This document shows positions 2,878 to 36,191 of a stretch of 37,977 bases of DNA, one piece after another. The notes beneath the pieces were generated by a model. It was not told where the DNA came from. It searched no databases and worked only from the letters and a program-made list of their open reading frames with translations. How positions within the stretch are numbered: the first letter of the stretch is position 1; the number at the start of each line of letters is the position of its first letter. The translations under genes and the position numbers were made by a program. The DNA is from a virus, in the IMG/VR virus record IMGVR_UViG_3300011688_000001, positions 1 through 37,977 of that record; one strand, written 5' to 3'.

Positions 2878-3675
2878 TTATCCTTTTAGGAATTTAGGTA
2901 CTACAGCTTCACGTTTTTGTCTGCCATAGCCATTTGTCTGACGCACTTCTGGTGTGAAGTCATATTCATCTTCCCAACCAGATTGATGAAACCAAGTTGA
3001 ACCCTGCTTAATGAATTGCTGTGGTGTCTGTTTAGCTTTGATCTGTTTCAAATACTCCTCAAGTTTTGATTTAATCAATTCAGGATCAACACCTGATTTA
3101 ATTGCTTTATCAAAATCTCTCTTGGCATTTGCTTTACCTGATTTCTTTGGATAGAGTTTCCAAATGGTTTCAAACATTTGATCACGTTCTGATTTTTGAA
3201 TACGCTTGCTGTCGGGTTCGTCAGAACCGGACAATATATCTTTACTATCCTTACCTAACCTATCCTTACCTAACCTTACCTGTGTCAACGTGTCGTCTAC
3301 GAGCCGTGGACGTTCCGTCGACGTGACAAATTTTTGATTTTCGTATTGACCAGAATCATTGACTTGAAGCTGTTCTAACTCGTTTGGATACATCGTTTTG
3401 TTATATGTATCTTTCCGAATGTAGTTATGAACTAACCAATCTTTTATGACAACAACGCCTGTCTCGAACGGGAAAATAAATTGCTTAGCCGTTAGTAATT
3501 TCAGATCATCTTCACTTGAGCCAATCATTCTTTGAATTGTTTTCGTGTTATCTATGAATCCGTCATCATCCGCATGCATATTGAGGTGAAAATACAATGC
3601 TTGAGAAGACAACGGCATATCTAGAAACGTATCTGTGTCAGTAACTTTTTTACTGAACATTCTTCTCTGTGCCAC
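2878..3675 (-). CDS. Phage replisome organizer / replication initiation protein
   Basis: N-terminus MAQRRMFSKKVTDTDTFLDMPLSSQALYFHLNMHADDDGF matches the replisome-organizer N-terminal signature. Tandem iterons lie inside the gene. Confidence 0.8.
   Translation of the reverse strand: MAQRRMFSKKVTDTDTFLDMPLSSQALYFHLNMHADDDGFIDNTKTIQRMIGSSEDDLKLLTAKQFIFPFETGVVVIKDWLVHNYIRKDTYNKTMYPNELEQLQVNDSGQYENQKFVTSTERPRLVDDTLTQVRLGKDRLGKDSKDILSGSDEPDSKRIQKSERDQMFETIWKLYPKKSGKANAKRDFDKAIKSGVDPELIKSKLEEYLKQIKAKQTPQQFIKQGSTWFHQSGWEDEYDFTPEVRQTNGYGRQKREAVVPKFLKG
3246..3281. repeat. Tandem 15-bp iterons (TATCCTTACCTAACC x2 plus a partial third); candidate origin of replication
   Basis: Exact tandem copies at 3246-3260 and 3261-3275, followed by the partial TTACCT. 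They encode RLGKD RLGKD in the organizer protein. Confidence 0.6.
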
Positions 3676-4620: not shown

Positions 4621-5388
4621 TTATACTGGTTGGTCTTGCTCAATCAAAGGTAAGTATCCGTTGTCTTTCAATAGTTCATACAAACCGAGTCGTCCCTTTT
4701 GCGTCCACTTTGTGTTCATCACAAGTTTCTTTGAGCCATCTTTTCGTACAACTTCGGTTGTCTCTGATTGAGTCCACCCTTTTGTCTGATGTTTTGCGTA
4801 TAACAACCACACACCCGATTGACTGTATTGGACGCCCAAATCATGTAATAACTTATTCATTGCTAGTCCGCTCATACCGTAATCTTTTGCGATAAAAGTG
4901 ATCGTTACTAATGTTTTGTTAGAAAGAATTAAGTCCGTGTAGTCAGCTTTCGGCTTTAACTCCGTAACCTGTTGCGCAAGCATTAGTTTTTCTTGACGCT
5001 CATTCTTTAAATCCGTTGCCAATCGAATGATTGTGTCTGGATTCGTTAAGACTTCTTCAATCGTCTTGTCCGTCATGTACGTGCCGTGTTTACGAATTGT
5101 TGGCAATACTTCGGTCGTTACCCAGTCTTGGAATTTTTCAGCCGTTTCGTTGTTAGCCTTGATTGCTAACTTGTAGAATTGTGGTTCAGTAATGAAATCA
5201 CCGCGATTTATGCTTTCGCCACTTGTGGCGAAAAGGTATTTATTAACTCGATTCCAACGAACATAGGTAACTTCCCCTTTTTCGTCTGAAATCCCCAAAC
5301 CGATTGCTGCTGATTCTGCATCGAACAATACCTGTCCGTTTTCTTCTTTGACCTTAAGGTTGTCAAACACCTGTACAGCTAATGACAT
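4621..5388 (-). CDS. Phage antirepressor (Bro-N / KilA-C type)
   Basis: N-terminal Bro-N-like region and C-terminal KilAC-like region (FIAKDYGMSGLAMNKLLHDLGVQY). Lies directly downstream of the cro-like gene. Confidence 0.75.
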   Translation of the reverse strand: MSLAVQVFDNLKVKEENGQVLFDAESAAIGLGISDEKGEVTYVRWNRVNKYLFATSGESINRGDFITEPQFYKLAIKANNETAEKFQDWVTTEVLPTIRKHGTYMTDKTIEEVLTNPDTIIRLATDLKNERQEKLMLAQQVTELKPKADYTDLILSNKTLVTITFIAKDYGMSGLAMNKLLHDLGVQYSQSGVWLLYAKHQTKGWTQSETTEVVRKDGSKKLVMNTKWTQKGRLGLYELLKDNGYLPLIEQDQPV

Positions 5389-12960: not shown

Positions 12961-13383
12961 TTATTGTGCTTCTGTTGGTGCAGCTGCTTTGTTATCGGTA
13001 GCCGTTACTACTTTTTCTGCTTCTGCCAGTTCTTCCGCTGACACAACCGGCTTAACGGTAGCTAGTGAACCATCTGCCTTATTACTTGCATAAGCCTGCT
13101 TGATATAAGCTAGGATTTGTGCTTGCGTAAACTTATCACCTAGCCCATTTTCGTCTAAGCGGGCTTTTACATCATAGGCAGCCGATTCCTGTTGCACCTT
13201 GCCGTCACCAAGCAACGCTTGTGCTGACAATACCGCTTGGCTTGCAAAGGTTAAGATGGTTTTGATGTGTTCGTTTTTTTGAACAGATGCTTGTTTCTTC
13301 AAAAACTTTGCACCACCATAACCAAAACCACCTGCAAAAAATACAAATACAAGCGTCTGGATAACTTTTAATGCTTCATTCAT
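12961..13383 (-). CDS. Holin (LL-H-family-like)
   Basis: Single N-terminal TM helix (VIQTLVFVFFAGGFGYGGA) plus a long hydrophilic tail. Directly upstream of the endolysin gene. SD AGGAGG. Confidence 0.65.
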   Translation of the reverse strand: MNEALKVIQTLVFVFFAGGFGYGGAKFLKKQASVQKNEHIKTILTFASQAVLSAQALLGDGKVQQESAAYDVKARLDENGLGDKFTQAQILAYIKQAYASNKADGSLATVKPVVSAEELAEAEKVVTATDNKAAAPTEAQ

Positions 13384-34710: not shown

Positions 34711-34761
34711 CCAAACAAAAGGTCCAACATGCGTATCTGTTTTAGATTCGCAAGTTGGACC
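34711..34761 (-). terminator. Strong hairpin GGUCCAAC...GUUGGACC (+ inner UGCG/CGCA) followed by UUUUGUUU, directly before the SD of the 34703 gene
   Basis: Perfect 8-bp stem at 34721-34728 / 34754-34761, read directly from the sequence. Confidence 0.55.
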
Positions 34762-34777
34762 GCGTATTTTATGTACT

Positions 34778-34818
34778 AAAAACCGCCGTTAGATTTAACT
34801 AACTAGCGGTTTTTGTTT
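34778..34818. terminator. Bidirectional terminator after the hdeD-like gene
   Basis: Two-part stem ACCGC/GCGGT plus GTTAG/CTAAC, flanked by A and T tracts. Confidence 0.6.
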
Positions 34819-34821
34819 AGA

Positions 34822-35358
34822 CTAATTTTTTAATGTAAAATAATGGATTAACTTGAAAATACCAATAACCAGTAATGTGATTCCAAAGAATGTCCATACA
34901 ACCAAACCACCCCAAATCGGGCTAAACAAAATACTTGCACCACCTAGTATACTGATGAAGGCTAATATTGTAGACCAGGTTTTGTTTGTCGCTAATTTAT
35001 TTAAAATAAACAACTGAACAAATCCTTCGACCAACCAAGTTATACCAGTTAATATACCAACGACCAGAATAAGCGATATCGCAGCTGATTGCATATCCAC
35101 AAAAATAAAAATTCCGGCTACAAGATAAATTACTGAAACGATCAGGTTGCCTAATCTTGCCATAGCATTTTCTGCATCTCTTCTAAACACAGAAATTAGC
35201 TTAAAAAGACCAACAGCAATCAAAACAGCACCAATCATGCCGGCAACAGCTCCGGCACTTAGAGTTGGTAAAAATACTATAAGTGCACCGATAATAGTAG
35301 ATATCAACCCATCAAATCCTATAGTTCTCCGTACTTTTGTAAAAAATTCCTCAGACAT
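34822..35358 (-). CDS. HdeD/DUF308-family membrane protein
   Basis: About 178 aa with six predicted TM helices in DUF308-like repeats. SD GAGGGAG before the ATG at 35358. Confidence 0.6.
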   Translation of the reverse strand: MSEEFFTKVRRTIGFDGLISTIIGALIVFLPTLSAGAVAGMIGAVLIAVGLFKLISVFRRDAENAMARLGNLIVSVIYLVAGIFIFVDMQSAAISLILVVGILTGITWLVEGFVQLFILNKLATNKTWSTILAFISILGGASILFSPIWGGLVVWTFFGITLLVIGIFKLIHYFTLKN

Positions 35359-35388
35359 AAGCTTCTCCCTCATAATGTGATTAGAACC

Positions 35389-35417
35389 ATTATATCTCAA
35401 TTAGTCGTTAATTACAA
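35389..35417 (-). promoter_or_regulatory. Sigma-70-type promoter TTGTAA-17-TATAAT for the hdeD-like gene
   Basis: Hexamers and spacing read directly from the minus strand. Confidence 0.6.
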
Positions 35418-35740
35418 AAATGTTAGCCTAATAAAAGGCACCTGTTAAGGTTCAGTTATGTACGCAATCGCAGGCAAGCGACTGCTATTAAGTTATGCGG
35501 ACGTACCGCAATTGGCAGGGTAAGGATTTGCACCTTACAAACGATATTTCTAACCCAGTTGCTCATGTAAGGTACTGGAGCGGTCTGTTCCGCGACCTGT
35601 CATAATGATAGATATTTCAACCTATCTATTTTAGATTACCACTAATCTTTGTTCTTGCAAGTGTGTGCAACGTCGCTTTAGGGTGCGATAACCCATAACG
35701 TAAGTCACGCCGTAGCATGTGTGAACGATTCTCTCAATCA
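35418..35740 (-). ncRNA. Candidate structured non-coding RNA / long leader (about 320 nt), family not recognised
   Basis: No SD-preceded ORF. Many stable hairpins, one with a G.U pair only in the minus-strand sense. Bracketed by an upstream promoter and the hdeD-like promoter. Confidence 0.4.
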
Positions 35741-35744
35741 TTCG

Positions 35745-35753
35745 ATAATACCA
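35745..35753 (-). promoter_or_regulatory. Extended -10 element TGGTATTAT
   Basis: Read directly from the minus strand, just downstream of the ArpU-gene terminator and palindrome. Confidence 0.45.
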
Positions 35754-35782
35754 ATTTACACCCATTTTTATGCACAAAACTG

Positions 35783-35811
35783 CATAAAAACCGCAGTATT
35801 ATAGGACTGCG
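35783..35811 (-). terminator. Intrinsic terminator at the end of the ArpU-like gene (CGCAGU-N8-ACUGCG + GUUUUUAU)
   Basis: The stop codon lies in the loop. 6-bp stem plus a U tract. Confidence 0.6.
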
Positions 35812-36191
35812 CCTAATATGTGTTTTACTTCTGTACGCCAAGCGATTGCTGTTCTTTCGGATATGTGAAACTGCTGTGCTACCTTTACCCACGTGACAGA
35901 CTTGCTTGCATAATAATACGCAACTACTTTCTGCTTGTCAGGCTCAAAAGTTGCTATCCAGCGTTCGACATCTTCCTTTTGCTTAACCAACGTCTGTAGT
36001 GTCTTATCGCTTTCCAAGCGTATCATCATGTCGTCTAGCGGCCTTGCGTGTTTATTAAGCGCTTTACCACCGCCGATGTTTTCATCGGTTGGCCCACGAT
36101 CGTTTCGCAACTCATATTCGCGTTGTCTAATTTTTAAATCGAGACGACCAGAGAAGTAGTCTCTCAAAATACTATCTATCCTATCTGCCAT
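35799..36191 (-). CDS. ArpU-family late transcriptional regulator
   Basis: 130 aa. C-terminal sigma-region-4-like HTH: VTWVKVAQQFHISERTAIAWRTEV. Sits at the end of the early region, before the packaging genes. Confidence 0.65.
   Translation of the reverse strand: MADRIDSILRDYFSGRLDLKIRQREYELRNDRGPTDENIGGGKALNKHARPLDDMMIRLESDKTLQTLVKQKEDVERWIATFEPDKQKVVAYYYASKSVTWVKVAQQFHISERTAIAWRTEVKHILGAVL

What the first reader, a model, noticed from the sequence alone, without database searches (positions are those of the whole stretch)
35418..35811. ORF-free, hairpin-dense ~320-nt RNA candidate with its own promoter between the ArpU-like regulator and the packaging genes
Seen in sequence: about 440 nt between the ArpU-like stop (35799) and the hdeD-like start (35358) hold no SD-preceded ORF. 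The longest ATG ORFs are about 36 codons.

Reading the minus strand, the order is:
- (i) An intrinsic terminator whose loop holds the ArpU stop codon (35783-35811).
- (ii) A perfect palindrome, TTTATGCA-N6-TGCATAAA (35767-35788), overlapping the terminator's U tract.
- (iii) An extended -10, TGGTATTAT (35745-35753).
- (iv) A run of stems: ATAGATA/TATCTAT (35608-35629), GCGG/CCGC, CCAGT/ACTGG (35555-35578), a T-arm-like TAAGG-TGCAAAT-CCTTA (35521-35537), TGCGG/CCGCA (35496-35510) and an 8-bp stem at 35464-35485. The one non-Watson-Crick position in that last stem is G.U only if the RNA is minus-sense.
- (v) A GUAAGG segment that can pair with either of two CCUUAC copies (plus-strand 35520-25 or 35566-72 versus 35533-39), giving mutually exclusive helices.

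Downstream lie a separate promoter, the hdeD-like moron, and then two terminators before the packaging-proximal genes.

Inference: the position matches lambda PR'-6S-tR' or the HK022 put RNAs. This could be a cis-acting antitermination or late-leader RNA, a riboswitch-like leader, or a stand-alone phage ncRNA. I cannot match it to any Rfam family from memory.
Basis: partly seen in the sequence, partly recalled or inferred. Interest (0 to 1): 0.7.

Follow-up and report, generated by a model that had tools for sequence, protein, structure and literature searches.

The report
Phage tRNA-like RNA in late-operon leader
The ORF-free stretch after the phage's late-gene activator is the start of the late transcript, and it carries a 91-nt tRNA-shaped RNA without a normal anticodon arm; this RNA belongs to a large family in phages of Gram-positive bacteria that I could not find described, and its function is unknown.

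Summary
The sequence features are real and at the stated coordinates. The window is a Leuconostoc-type temperate siphophage with its genes on the minus strand.

Directly after the Alt-like (DUF722) late activator lie its terminator, two 11-bp-spaced direct repeats and an extended -10 with a poor -35. This is the layout described for Ltr/Alt-dependent late promoters.

About 135 nt downstream, at 35512-35602 (minus strand), is a tRNA-like cloverleaf that ARAGORN and Rfam 15 do not call. In a sibling phage (LLC-1) the same slot, between the same flanks, holds a genuine tRNA-Ala.

The element belongs to a family of about 120 distinct sequences recovered from two capped scans of phage contigs. The family also occurs in Listeria phage B054, Bacillus phage phi3T, Leuconostoc phage Ln-9 and, by BLAST only, Enterococcus phage EFP01.

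Family features:
- a 7-bp acceptor stem that covaries freely
- a tRNA-Leu-type D arm
- a 6-bp T stem with loop UGCAAAU (G55)
- no encoded CCA
- a hypervariable 8-232-nt domain in place of the anticodon arm

Members sit in tRNA arrays or, typically, between the late activator and the HNH/terminase genes.

The window copy is a divergent member (shortened D loop, one A.C mismatch).

The antitermination and riboswitch readings have no support. The function is unknown. The best guess is an RNase P/Z-released tRNA-Leu "top-half" mimic.

The parts
35783..35811 (-). Intrinsic terminator of the Alt-like gene: 6-bp stem, 8-nt loop holding the stop codon, then a U tract.
   Evidence: Scan; sequence. L008 has an 8-bp version. 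A terminator after the ltr gene is expected for Ltr-type late regions (PMC3753634).
35767..35791 (-). Two direct repeats, GTTTTTATGCA / GTTTTGTGCA, 11 bp apart; they also read as the palindrome TTTATGCA-N6-TGCATAAA. Candidate Alt-binding site.
   Evidence: Sequence. Repeats are kept in LLC-1 (GTTTTTCTGAC/GTTTTATGCA) and L003. Direct repeats just distal to the activator gene are the binding site in the Ltr superfamily (PMC3753634). Binding here is inferred.
35736..35766 (-). Late promoter core: extended -10 TGGTATTAT (35745-35753), no good -35, predicted start near 35738.
   Evidence: This block is conserved in L008, L003, L010, and even in L025 and L052, whose Alt is only about 34% identical or unknown. 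It is not listed by the sigma-70 scan, as expected for an activator-dependent promoter. The transcription start is inferred.
35673..35694 (-). Candidate small H-type pseudoknot in the 5' leader: GGGU..UCGC..ACCC..GCGA.
   Evidence: Read from the sequence. LLC-1 has AGGG..UUGC..CCCU..GCAA at the aligned place, with a compensatory change in the second stem. Too few variants to test.
35603..35629 (-). 5' flank hairpin (block A): AUAGAUA-GGUUGAAA-UAUCUAU, then CAUUA, ending at the first base of the tRNA-like element.
   Evidence: 92-96% identical in L001 (there it precedes tRNA-Ala), L007, L116 and L019. No covariation is available.
35512..35602 (-). The tRNA-like RNA, 91 nt. Layout: acceptor UGACAGG/CCUGCCA (35596-35602 / 35513-35519; A3.C70 mismatch); UC; D arm GCGG-AACAGA-CCGC (35580-35593); hairpin CCAGU-N14-ACUGG (35555-35578); 16-nt linker; T arm GUAAGG-UGCAAAU-CCUUAC (35520-35538); discriminator A (35512); no CCA.
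   Evidence: The covariance model R1, built without the window, scores it 43.9 bits, E = 3.9e-9; the next hit in the window scores 7 bits. The minimum-free-energy fold recovers the cloverleaf. It is orthologous to canonical members in L007 and L116, which share the acceptor, T arm and 5' flank. L019 has an identical copy with A:U at pair 3:70. ARAGORN and Rfam find nothing.
35457..35511 (-). 3' trailer motif (block C): hairpin UGCGG-UACGU-CCGCA (35496-35510), linker UAACUUAAUA, hairpin GCAGUCGC-UUGCCU-GCGAUUGC (35464-35485), then the invariant GUACAUA (35457-35463).
   Evidence: It follows the last tRNA or tRNA-like gene in L001, L007, L116, L003, L004, L010 and L008. Both hairpins change compensatorily between variants while AACUUAAU and CGUACAUA stay fixed.
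35430..35453 (-). Degraded copy of the leader-end hairpin and U tract (GAACCU-UAAC-AGGUGC CUUUUAUU).
   Evidence: The intact form GCACCTTAACGGGTGC-T6 lies 15-20 nt before the first late ORF in L001, L003, L007 and L008 and scores as a terminator there. It is not scored as one in the window.
34711..35417 (-). Context: an inserted moron. It has its own promoter TTGTAA-17-TATAAT (35389-35417), a DUF308/HdeD-like gene (34822-35358) and two strong terminators (34711-34818), all lying between the late leader and the first late genes.
   Evidence: It is absent at this place in LLC-1, L003 and L007; phiMH1 carries a methylase there instead.

Best explanation
The region is the 5' leader of the phage late transcript. 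It starts at an Alt-activated promoter immediately downstream of the alt gene. The leader is built from exchangeable RNA cassettes.

Its conserved core is a tRNA-like gene (35512-35602, minus strand). This gene belongs to a large family, apparently undescribed, in phages of Bacilli. The family keeps the tRNA-Leu acceptor stem, D arm, tertiary core (U8, A14, A15, G18G19, A21, U48, C56) and T arm. It differs from tRNA in three ways:
- a 6-bp T stem, giving a 13-bp acceptor/T helix
- G55 in the T loop
- a hypervariable domain in place of the anticodon arm

Most likely mechanism (inferred): the element is cut out of the late transcript by the tRNA-maturation enzymes. RNase P would cut at 35602. 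RNase Z would cut after the discriminator at 35512, because no CCA is encoded, and CCA would then be added. The product would be a stable ~91-nt RNA that presents a tRNA-Leu 'top half and elbow' but cannot decode.

It then probably acts in trans, as a mimic or decoy for a factor that reads the tRNA elbow and acceptor end, or as a scaffold for its variable domain. The flanking hairpins (block A, block C + GUACAUA) would be processing or stability signals for the released RNA and for the downstream mRNA.

The window copy is a divergent, possibly weakened, member.
For: Promoter:
- The terminator, direct repeats and extended -10 are conserved after alt in 6 or more relatives.
- This matches the experimentally defined Ltr/Alt arrangement (PMC3753634).

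Slot:
- In LLC-1, ARAGORN finds tRNA-Ala(UGC) exactly between block A and block C.
- L010 has tRNA-Phe plus a family member in the slot; L003 has a member plus an odd tRNA.

Family, ascertained by the T arm:
- 78 distinct sequences were recovered.
- In a 44-sequence alignment that excludes the window, 98.2% of cells are paired and all 7 acceptor pairs show double changes.
- There are 161 compensatory cells. The covariation score is 0.598, against 0.152 for shuffles (0/500 reach it) and 0.04-0.09 for slid controls.

Family, ascertained independently by the D arm:
- 54 more distinct members were recovered. 43 of the 54 have loop UGCAAAU, and U48 is invariant.
- In a 35-sequence alignment of these, T-stem pairs 2-4 covary (AU/GC/CG/UA) and the covariation score is 0.673 against 0.167.
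- Genuine tRNA-Leu genes with the same D arm have 5-bp T stems and UUCRA loops.

Strand: G.U/U.G pairs number 29 against 4 A.C/C.A.

tRNA-like behaviour:
- About 20% of members lie inside tRNA arrays on the same strand, some 2-11 nt from a tRNA.
- None encodes CCA, and the base after the discriminator is mostly U.

Context of 123 members, all neighbours on the same strand:
- Recurrent upstream neighbours are DUF1492 (14 loci) and DUF722 (12 loci) late activators.
- Recurrent downstream neighbours are HNH (16 loci), TerL (11 + 9 loci) and TerS.

Window copy: R1 gives 43.9 bits, and it is orthologous to the L007/L116 members.

LeuRS: recognition rests on A73 plus the tertiary core, and the anticodon arm is dispensable (PMC2377443).
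Against: - No expression or processing data exist. The transcription start, the RNase P/Z cuts and CCA addition are all inferred.
- The window copy lacks G18G19 (D loop shortened by 3 nt), has A3.C70, and has UUU instead of YAU before the T stem.
- Its CM score (43.9 bits) falls in the range that ordinary phage tRNA-Leu genes reach with the same model (35-43 bits). Membership therefore rests on the family-specific T arm and on synteny, and the copy may be decaying.
- The discriminator is A in only about 60% of members, and position 55 is G. G18-U55 matters for LeuRS, so general leucylation is doubtful.
- 112 non-redundant variable domains share no motif, so no effector function can be read from them.
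- Location next to late activators may only reflect a permissive insertion hot spot that tRNAs, ROOL and morons also use.
Confidence: 0.68

Rival explanations
1. Cis-acting late-leader RNA. The folded leader acts on the transcribing RNA polymerase, as put or 6S/Q do, or acts as a processing or stability signal, so that late transcripts pass the downstream terminators and reach the packaging genes. In this reading the tRNA-like fold is a cis RNase P/Z 'punctuation' site that sets the 5' end of the late mRNA, not a trans-acting product.
For: - Family members lie on the same strand between late activators and HNH/terS/terL in many unrelated phages.
- A hairpin with a U tract closes the leader in relatives.
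- In the window, three terminator-like sites separate the promoter from the packaging genes.
- Block C hairpins directly after the predicted RNase Z site could protect the downstream mRNA.
Against: - The same family occurs inside tRNA arrays of large phages, far from any late promoter.
- In phi3T it lies after yonN, and in B054 it lies among early-type genes.
- Sibling phages replace the element with ordinary tRNAs or with nothing, as in phiMH1.
- No Q-like antiterminator is present; Alt belongs to an activator family.
- Rfam finds nothing.
Confidence: 0.15
2. Inert remnant. In this phage the element is a decaying tRNA or tRNA-like pseudogene left in a recombination-prone tRNA slot. The surrounding hairpins are leftovers of cassette shuffling with no present function.
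For: - The window copy has a shortened D loop without GG, an A.C mismatch in the acceptor, and a non-consensus junction before the T stem.
- It scores about half of canonical members: 43.9 bits against 78-90.
- The leader-end terminator is also degraded.
- Folding energy is barely better than shuffles.
Against: - The 115-nt block (hairpin plus element) is near-identical, with 3 differences, in L019. That phage has an Alt only 36% identical, and its flanks diverge abruptly at the element's ends.
- The T arm and acceptor are intact.
- The family as a whole is under clear structural selection.
Confidence: 0.12
3. DNA-level element. The conserved blocks are protein-binding sites, or a pac/cos-related or replication-related DNA structure near the packaging module, rather than an RNA.
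For: - The region lies just upstream of the packaging genes; in Ln-9 it is 150 bp from the genome end.
- Repeats are present (GTTTT..., GTACATA).
- Folding z-scores are equal on both strands.
Against: - G.U pairs outnumber A.C by 29 to 4 on the sense strand.
- The element always has the same orientation as neighbouring tRNAs and genes.
- tRNA tertiary-core positions are conserved.
- The terminase here is a headful (Terminase_3) type.
Confidence: 0.03
4. Small protein gene. One of the 30-48-codon ORFs in the gap is translated.
For: ORFs of 36-48 codons exist on both strands.
Against: - None has an SD.
- None is conserved as a protein; blastx hits are only frame-independent artefacts over block C.
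- Indels between relatives break all the frames.
Confidence: 0.02

Closest known systems
Class II tRNA-Leu (phage and bacterial)
   Same: - 7-bp acceptor stem.
- U8, and a D arm GCGGAAUAGGUAGACGC that is identical to real phage tRNA-Leu genes.
- A14, A15-U48, G18G19, A21 and C56.
- A hairpin just 5' of the T stem, placed like a long variable arm.
- Discriminator mostly A.
- Sits in tRNA arrays.
   Different: - No 5-bp/7-nt anticodon arm: 10-17 nt of single strand or nothing, then a domain of 8-232 nt.
- A 6-bp T stem, so 13 bp of stacked helix instead of 12.
- T loop UGCAAAU with G55.
- The first pair is often U:A or A:U.
- Not called by ARAGORN or by Rfam's tRNA model; the best score, from a 76-nt member, is 26 bits against a gathering threshold of 29.
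mascRNA / menRNA (tRNA-like RNAs cut from the MALAT1 and MEN-beta transcripts by RNase P and RNase Z)
   Same: A tRNA-shaped, non-decoding RNA embedded in a longer transcript and released by tRNA-maturation enzymes. This is the mechanism proposed here (analogy; PMC11693755, listed).
   Different: - Those RNAs are eukaryotic, lie at the 3' end of a lncRNA, and are unrelated in sequence.
- Here the element is in a 5' leader or a tRNA array, and processing has not been shown.
Phage T4 RNAC and RNAD (species 1 and 2 RNAs)
   Same: Stable phage RNAs of unknown function that are made late (PMC9697503). From memory: they are encoded in the T4 tRNA cluster and matured by tRNA enzymes.
   Different: - No sequence or structure relation was tested.
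- T4 infects a Gram-negative host.
- The tRNA-like termini of RNAC and RNAD are recalled from memory, not checked here.
tmRNA
   Same: A tRNA-like domain whose anticodon arm is replaced by a large insert that can contain pseudoknots. Possible pseudoknots are seen in L045 and L102.
   Different: - ARAGORN in tmRNA mode finds none (for the window).
- No G3:U70 and no tag ORF.
- A full D arm is present.
- Inserts are as short as 8 nt.
Ltr/RinA/ArpU/Alt-dependent late promoter regions of Gram-positive phages
   Same: An activator gene just upstream of terS, followed by its terminator, direct repeats within about 60 nt after the gene, and then the late promoter (PMC3753634; window).
   Different: That work describes no structured or tRNA-like RNA in the leader; the word tRNA does not occur in the paper.
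ROOL / GOLLD phage RNAs
   Same: Phage and prophage non-coding RNAs of unknown function found near tRNA islands, with tRNAs sometimes nested inside (10.1101/2024.12.08.627333). One family member lies 14 nt after a ROOL RNA, and one has a tRNA-Lys nested in it.
   Different: ROOL and GOLLD are far larger (about 580 nt to over 800 nt) with unrelated folds. Neither is present in the window.

Membership tests
Canonical tRNA | Detected by ARAGORN or by Rfam RF00005 at its gathering score | tested here: not met
   ARAGORN finds 0 genes in the window. Rfam finds no hit at gathering or at E<=10. 77 of 78 family members are not called.
Canonical tRNA | Anticodon arm: 5-bp stem and 7-nt loop, one base after the D stem | tested here: not met
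   The window has CCAGU-N14-ACUGG plus a 16-nt linker. The family has inserts of 8-232 nt with no shared motif.
Canonical tRNA | 5-bp T stem with loop UUCRANY (U54-U55-C56), and G18G19 in the D loop | tested here: not met
   The T stem is 6 bp and the loop is UGCAAAU. The window's D loop, AACAGA, has no GG.
Phage tRNA-Leu-like, anticodon-arm-less RNA family (defined here; model R1) | 6-bp T stem GYNNGG/CCNNRC with loop UGCAAAU, abutting a 7-bp acceptor 3' strand | tested here: met
   GUAAGG-UGCAAAU-CCUUAC, then CCUGCCA-A.
Phage tRNA-Leu-like, anticodon-arm-less RNA family (defined here; model R1) | 7-bp acceptor stem closing the molecule, U8, no encoded CCA | tested here: met
   UGACAGG/CCUGCCA pairs at 6 of 7 positions (A3.C70); the L019 copy pairs at 7 of 7. 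U8 is present. The trailer is UUG.
Phage tRNA-Leu-like, anticodon-arm-less RNA family (defined here; model R1) | D arm GCGGAAUAGGUAGACGC, and YAU immediately 5' of the T stem | tested here: not met
   The window has GCGGAACAGACCGC (3 nt shorter, no GG) and UUU before the T stem; only U48 is kept.
Phage tRNA-Leu-like, anticodon-arm-less RNA family (defined here; model R1) | Significant score with a covariance model built without the window | tested here: inconclusive
   43.9 bits, E = 3.9e-9, the only hit in 38 kb. But genuine tRNA-Leu genes reach 35-43 bits with R1.
Phage tRNA-Leu-like, anticodon-arm-less RNA family (defined here; model R1) | Orthologous position and flanks shared with canonical members | tested here: met
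   Compared with L007 (88 bits) and L116 (88 bits), it has the same 5' hairpin, the same acceptor and T arm sequence, and the same position after alt.
HK022 put / lambda PR'-6S-tR' antitermination leaders | A conserved leader fold directly after the start site that is kept across relatives | tested here: not met
   The leader is a mosaic. phiMH1 lacks the middle blocks, and LLC-1 has a tRNA-Ala there.
HK022 put / lambda PR'-6S-tR' antitermination leaders | Q-type antiterminator, or factor-independent modification of RNA polymerase | not testable with these tools
   The adjacent gene is an Alt/DUF722 activator. Its effect on elongation cannot be computed.
Riboswitch / T-box / known cis-regulatory leaders; ROOL, GOLLD, raiA | Match to any Rfam 15 model | tested here: not met
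   No hits at gathering on the whole window. Only noise (mir-3 and DGCR5, E about 1.5) at E<=10 on 35300-35900.
Ltr/Alt-dependent late promoter region | A terminator after the activator gene, direct repeats within about 60 nt, then a promoter lacking a good -35; conserved among relatives | tested here: met
   criteria from PMC3753634.
Ltr/Alt-dependent late promoter region | Alt binding and Alt-dependent transcription start | not testable with these tools
   Needs EMSA or footprinting, and 5' RACE after induction.
tmRNA | tRNA-Ala-like domain with G3:U70 and a tag reading frame | tested here: not met
   ARAGORN finds no tmRNA. Pair 3:70 is A.C or A:U, and it is variable across the family.

The most novel reading that the evidence does not exclude
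Firmicutes phages make, at the onset of late transcription or from their tRNA arrays, a dedicated class of non-decoding tRNA-Leu 'top-half' mimics. The 13-bp acceptor/T helix and G55 would keep these RNAs out of the EF-Tu and ribosome pathway, while their hypervariable domain differs from phage to phage.

They would act in trans in one of two ways. One is as decoys or sponges for host factors that read the tRNA elbow or 3' end, for example tRNA-directed abortive-infection toxins, CCA-end modifiers or LeuRS. The other is as a natural 'tRNA scaffold' that delivers diverse effector RNA domains. Either way this would be a new layer of phage-host conflict centred on tRNA mimicry.
Probability: 0.3. 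Interest if true: 0.88.

Novelty: new variant of a known kind. Interest (0 to 1): 0.74.

Why it matters
If the family is real and expressed, it is one of the more widespread unannotated phage RNAs. About 120 distinct sequences came from two capped scans. It is also present in well-studied phages of Listeria, Bacillus, Enterococcus and Leuconostoc, where nothing is annotated at the site or only a small hypothetical ORF overlaps it.

It gives a concrete, testable object in tractable systems (phi3T in B. subtilis, A118/B054-type Listeria phages). Three questions could be addressed with it:
- Why do phages carry tRNA-like genes that cannot decode?
- What do tRNA islands, with ROOL and GOLLD, do?
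- What sits at the head of late operons controlled by the Ltr/ArpU/Alt activators?

Practically, tRNA finders and Rfam miss it, so phage annotations currently show an empty gap or spurious small ORFs at this position.

Tried and rejected
- Rfam on the whole window (gathering) and on the region (E<=10): nothing.
- Rfam at E<=1 on 19 related loci: only ROOL, two true tRNAs, DUF3800-VIII, and a sub-threshold tRNA score for the 76-nt member.
- ARAGORN on the window and on 78 members: negative, apart from one tRNA nested inside a member.
- Thermodynamic folding: z about -2 on both strands, so uninformative for strand or function.
- Decayed-ORF idea: blastx against 8079 ORFs of related loci gave only frame-independent artefacts.
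- Conserved motif in the variable domains: none in 112 non-redundant inserts.
- A strict link to Alt/ArpU genes: frequent but not universal. Other neighbours include Gp157, integrase, scaffold protein and cell-wall hydrolase.
- Literature: six word searches and one search for the sequence strings found no description of this family. A 2023 catalogue of 10,006 phage structured-RNA candidates mentions tRNA-like candidates only generically (PMC10690425).
- My recollection that staphylococcal non-proteinogenic tRNA-Gly carry 'GUGC' in the T loop could not be verified. The paper read says only that they lack G18, G19, U55 and C56 (PMC4574755). I do not rely on it.
- Leucylation as a general property: weakened by the variable discriminator and by G55.
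- The first viral scan used a 15-mer taken from the window's own T arm, which biases T-arm statistics. This was corrected with a second scan seeded on the D arm.
Full report
**Setting**

The window is a temperate siphophage of Leuconostoc type with its genes on the minus strand. Around the finding lie, in order:
- a RusA-like resolvase
- an Alt-like late activator (35799-36191; Pfam DUF722, PHROG 'Alt-like transcription activator')
- the ORF-free gap
- a DUF308/HdeD-like membrane protein (34822-35358)
- a 65-aa protein
- a 406-aa 'DNA repair exonuclease'-type protein
- TerS (Terminase_2) and TerL (Terminase_3)

The nearest relatives are Leuconostoc phages phiMH1 and LLC-1 and prophages of L. 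holzapfelii, L. citreum, L. pseudomesenteroides, L. falkenbergense and L. aquikimchii.

**Observation check**

Three qualifications apply:
- The longest ATG ORF is 44 codons, not 36.
- The 314-nt RNA folds only modestly better than shuffles (z = -2.1), and the opposite strand does equally well (z = -2.0).
- The 3' hairpin is too weak in the window to score as a terminator.

Rfam 15 finds nothing in the window at gathering thresholds, and only noise at E<=10 in the region. ARAGORN finds no tRNA or tmRNA.

**The promoter end**

Right after the alt stop codon, relatives conserve a block that contains two direct repeats one helical turn apart and an extended -10 with no good -35. In the window the repeats are GTTTTTATGCA / GTTTTGTGCA and the -10 is TGGTATTAT.

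The -10/start region is recognisable even in phages whose Alt is only about 34% identical (L025).

This is the arrangement shown experimentally for the Ltr/RinA/ArpU superfamily, and noted for Alt: the activator gene's terminator, then a repeat-containing binding block of about 59 nt just distal to the gene, then the late (terS) promoter (PMC3753634).

Binding and the start site are inferred.

**The core**

Aligning the gap with LLC-1 and phiMH1 shows a mosaic. The promoter block and a terminal hairpin with a U tract are shared by all three. The middle consists of short blocks shared with some relatives only.

In LLC-1, ARAGORN finds a bona fide tRNA-Ala(UGC) lying exactly between two of those blocks: the 5' hairpin (block A) and the 3' trailer (block C).

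In the window the same slot, 35512-35602 on the minus strand, holds a cloverleaf:
- acceptor UGACAGG/CCUGCCA
- a D-like arm
- a hairpin with a 14-nt loop
- a linker
- a T arm GUAAGG-UGCAAAU-CCUUAC
- discriminator A
- no CCA

L007 and L003 carry homologues. They have a perfect tRNA-Leu-type D arm (GUGGCGGAAUAGGUAGACGC), the same unusual T loop, compensatory changes in the acceptor and T stems, and quite different middles.

**A large family**

Most hits were not chance: 78 distinct sequences share this layout:

[7-nt acceptor]-UG-GCGGAAUAGGUAGACGC-[insert of 8-232 nt, median 76]-GYAAGG-UGCAAAU-CCUURC-[acceptor']-N

In a 44-sequence alignment that excludes the window and its twin L019:
- 98.2% of cells are paired.
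- Every acceptor pair shows double (compensatory) changes, 161 cells in all.
- The covariation score is 0.598, against 0.152 in shuffles (0/500 reach it) and 0.04-0.09 when partners are slid.

That scan fixed the T arm, so I repeated the ascertainment with the D arm alone. This gave 54 further distinct members:
- 43 of the 54 have loop UGCAAAU, and the rest are one base away from it.
- The base before the T stem (U48) is invariant.
- The T stem is 6 bp, and its pairs 2-4 covary (AU/GC/CG/UA). The 35-sequence alignment has a covariation score of 0.673 against 0.167.
- Real tRNA-Leu genes that share that D arm are distinct, with 82-85 nt, 5-bp T stems and UUCRA loops.

G.U pairs outnumber A.C by 29 to 4, so the RNA is read in this sense.

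No member is called by ARAGORN. No Rfam family matches; the shortest canonical-length member reaches 26 bits with the tRNA model, below the gathering score of 29.

BLAST and the covariance model R1 find members in named phages:
- Listeria B054: 85 bits
- Leuconostoc Ln-9: 90 bits
- Bacillus phi3T: 67.5 bits, just after yonO/yonN
- by BLAST only: Listeria LP-101, Enterococcus EFP01 and EfV12-phi1, and Brochothrix and Paenibacillus phages

At these sites either nothing is annotated or only a small hypothetical ORF overlaps the element.

**What is conserved and what is not**

Conserved:
- U8, A14, A15, G18G19, A21, U48 and C56, and the T loop, which together make the tRNA tertiary core and elbow
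- pairing, but not sequence, in the acceptor stem
- a 13-bp stacked acceptor/T helix

Free:
- the discriminator (A in about 60% of members)
- the first base pair (often U:A or A:U)
- everything between the D stem and U47-U48

That variable region usually consists of 10-17 unpaired bases followed by a hairpin domain whose 3' strand ends two bases before the T stem. This resembles a collapsed anticodon arm plus an enlarged class-II variable arm.

The 112 non-redundant inserts share no motif. One insert contains a complete tRNA-Lys. Some members instead carry insertions in the D loop or the T loop.

**Context**

About a fifth of members lie inside tRNA arrays on the same strand, some only 2-11 nt from a tRNA.

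I clustered the neighbours of 123 members. The most recurrent neighbours, all on the same strand, are (also 33, 49-51):
- upstream: DUF1492 (14 loci) and DUF722/Alt (12 loci) late regulators
- downstream: HNH endonuclease (16 loci), two TerL types (11 and 9 loci) and TerS

So in temperate siphophages the usual place is the head of the late operon. The link is not exclusive.

**The window copy**

R1, built without the window, scores it 43.9 bits (E = 3.9e-9), and the next best hit in the window scores 7 bits.

Caveat: ordinary tRNA-Leu genes score 35-43 bits with R1, so the score alone does not decide membership. Membership rests on two things:
- the family-specific T arm abutting a 7-bp acceptor
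- orthology with the canonical members of L007 and L116, which share the 5' hairpin, acceptor and T arm

The copy is aberrant: its D loop is 3 nt shorter and lacks GG, pair 3:70 is A.C, and UUU replaces YAU before the T stem.

L019 is a phage whose Alt is 36% identical. It has the same 115-nt block (hairpin plus element) with three differences, one of which restores A:U at 3:70. Its flanks diverge sharply at the element's ends. That pattern fits a mobile cassette. It cannot separate selection from recent transfer.

**Flanks**

Block C follows the last tRNA or tRNA-like gene in seven related loci. Its two hairpins change compensatorily:
- hairpin 1: UGCGG/CCGCA against UUGCG/CGCAA
- hairpin 2: GCAGUCGC/GCGAUUGC against GAGCGGC/GCUGCUC, GAGUGAC/GUUGCUC and GAGUAAGC/GCUUGCUC

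Meanwhile AACUUAAU and CGUACAUA stay fixed.

'Hairpin + GUACAUA' recurs two to four times per leader in relatives. In the window it recurs once more, after the moron's first terminator at 34770-34776.

The leader-end hairpin is intact in relatives, 15-20 nt before the first late ORF, and scores as a terminator there. In the window it is degraded, and a DUF308 moron with its own promoter and two strong terminators has been inserted behind it.

**Mechanism**

Shown:
- the non-coding nature of the region
- the strand
- the promoter architecture by homology
- family membership
- the structure by covariation
- the context

Inferred:
- transcription from the Alt-dependent promoter
- excision by RNase P and RNase Z, suggested by the lack of an encoded CCA, the U-rich trailers and residence in tRNA arrays
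- CCA addition
- a trans-acting role as a non-decoding tRNA-Leu top-half mimic

LeuRS reads A73 and the tertiary core and does not need the anticodon arm (PMC2377443). The retained parts coincide with what LeuRS needs. However, G55 and the variable discriminator argue against leucylation as the general function.

I rank a decoy or scaffold role first. A purely cis processing or antitermination role comes second, and decay third.

**Novelty**

I found no description of the family in Rfam 15 or in the paper library. The library is incomplete, so prior description cannot be excluded.

The nearest analogues are:
- tRNA-Leu itself
- mascRNA-type RNase P/Z-released mimics
- T4 RNAC and RNAD, late RNAs of unknown function
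- tmRNA, in topology only
- the ROOL/GOLLD RNAs of tRNA islands

Noticed in passing
L066:667-1248 (ROOL) and L066:1262-1385 (family member): A ROOL RNA (Rfam RF03087, 260 bits) lies 14 nt upstream of a tRNA-like family member on the same strand. This links the family to the tRNA islands where ROOL and GOLLD occur.
   Followed up: partly
L090, minus strand, about 4903-5104: A complete tRNA-Lys(UUU), called by ARAGORN, is nested inside the variable domain of a 202-nt family member. L034 and L067 carry T-arm-like hairpins (GGAGUUCGAAUCUCC, GUGGUUCGAAUCCAC) inside their inserts.
   Followed up: partly
L003:3217-3291: A tRNA with an 8-nt anticodon loop (ARAGORN gives anticodon 'uaga'; Rfam tRNA 42 bits) lies about 100 nt after the tRNA-like element in a L. 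holzapfelii prophage. It could be a frameshift- or suppressor-type tRNA.
   Followed up: no
window 35457-35463 and 34770-34776 (minus strand); L003 x3, L008 x4, L116 x3, L007 x2, L001 x2: The motif 'hairpin immediately followed by GUACAUA' recurs in the same sense through the late leaders of Leuconostoc phages, and the hairpins covary. From memory, UACAU is the cleavage pentad of Firmicute MazF/EndoA toxins. The meaning is unknown.
   Followed up: partly
L007 about 1150-1195; L116 about 13285-13328; L008 about 3108-3160: A second, smaller tRNA-like unit precedes block C in relatives. It has acceptor GUGAAUG/CAUUCAC and a T arm whose stem covaries (UCUGG/CCAGA, CGGG/CCCG, CAGG/CCUG), but no D or anticodon arm. 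It is absent from the window.
   Followed up: no
window 35673-35694 (minus strand): A candidate H-type pseudoknot lies about 45-65 nt after the predicted late transcription start (GGGU..UCGC..ACCC..GCGA). LLC-1 has a compensatory variant (AGGG..UUGC..CCCU..GCAA). Rfam does not match it to preQ1 or any other family.
   Followed up: partly
window 34711-35417 (minus strand): A DUF308/HdeD-like moron, with its own sigma-70-type promoter (10/12 match) and two strong terminators, is inserted between the late promoter/leader and the first late genes. Either late transcripts read through three terminator-like sites, or another late promoter exists downstream.
   Followed up: partly
L131:2500-2635 (Bacillus phage phi3T, KY030782 about 50191-50326, minus strand): A family member (67.5 bits) sits directly after yonN (HU-like) and yonO, partly under the annotated hypothetical gene phi3T_57. 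A DUF3800-VIII RNA (Rfam, 44.7 bits) lies 1.2 kb further on.
   Followed up: partly
L014, L030, L082, L106 (D loop); L158, L186, L215, L211, L210 (T loop): Some family members carry large insertions inside the D loop (GUGGAAUAG-[insert]-UAGACAC) or inside the T loop (GGGUGAC-UAUACGAG...). The chassis therefore tolerates cargo at three different positions.
   Followed up: no
L038, L070 (3' of the listed members): A second GGUGGCG... 5' half begins within about 30 nt after the first member, suggesting tandem copies of the tRNA-like gene inside large tRNA arrays (26 and 12 tRNAs).
   Followed up: no
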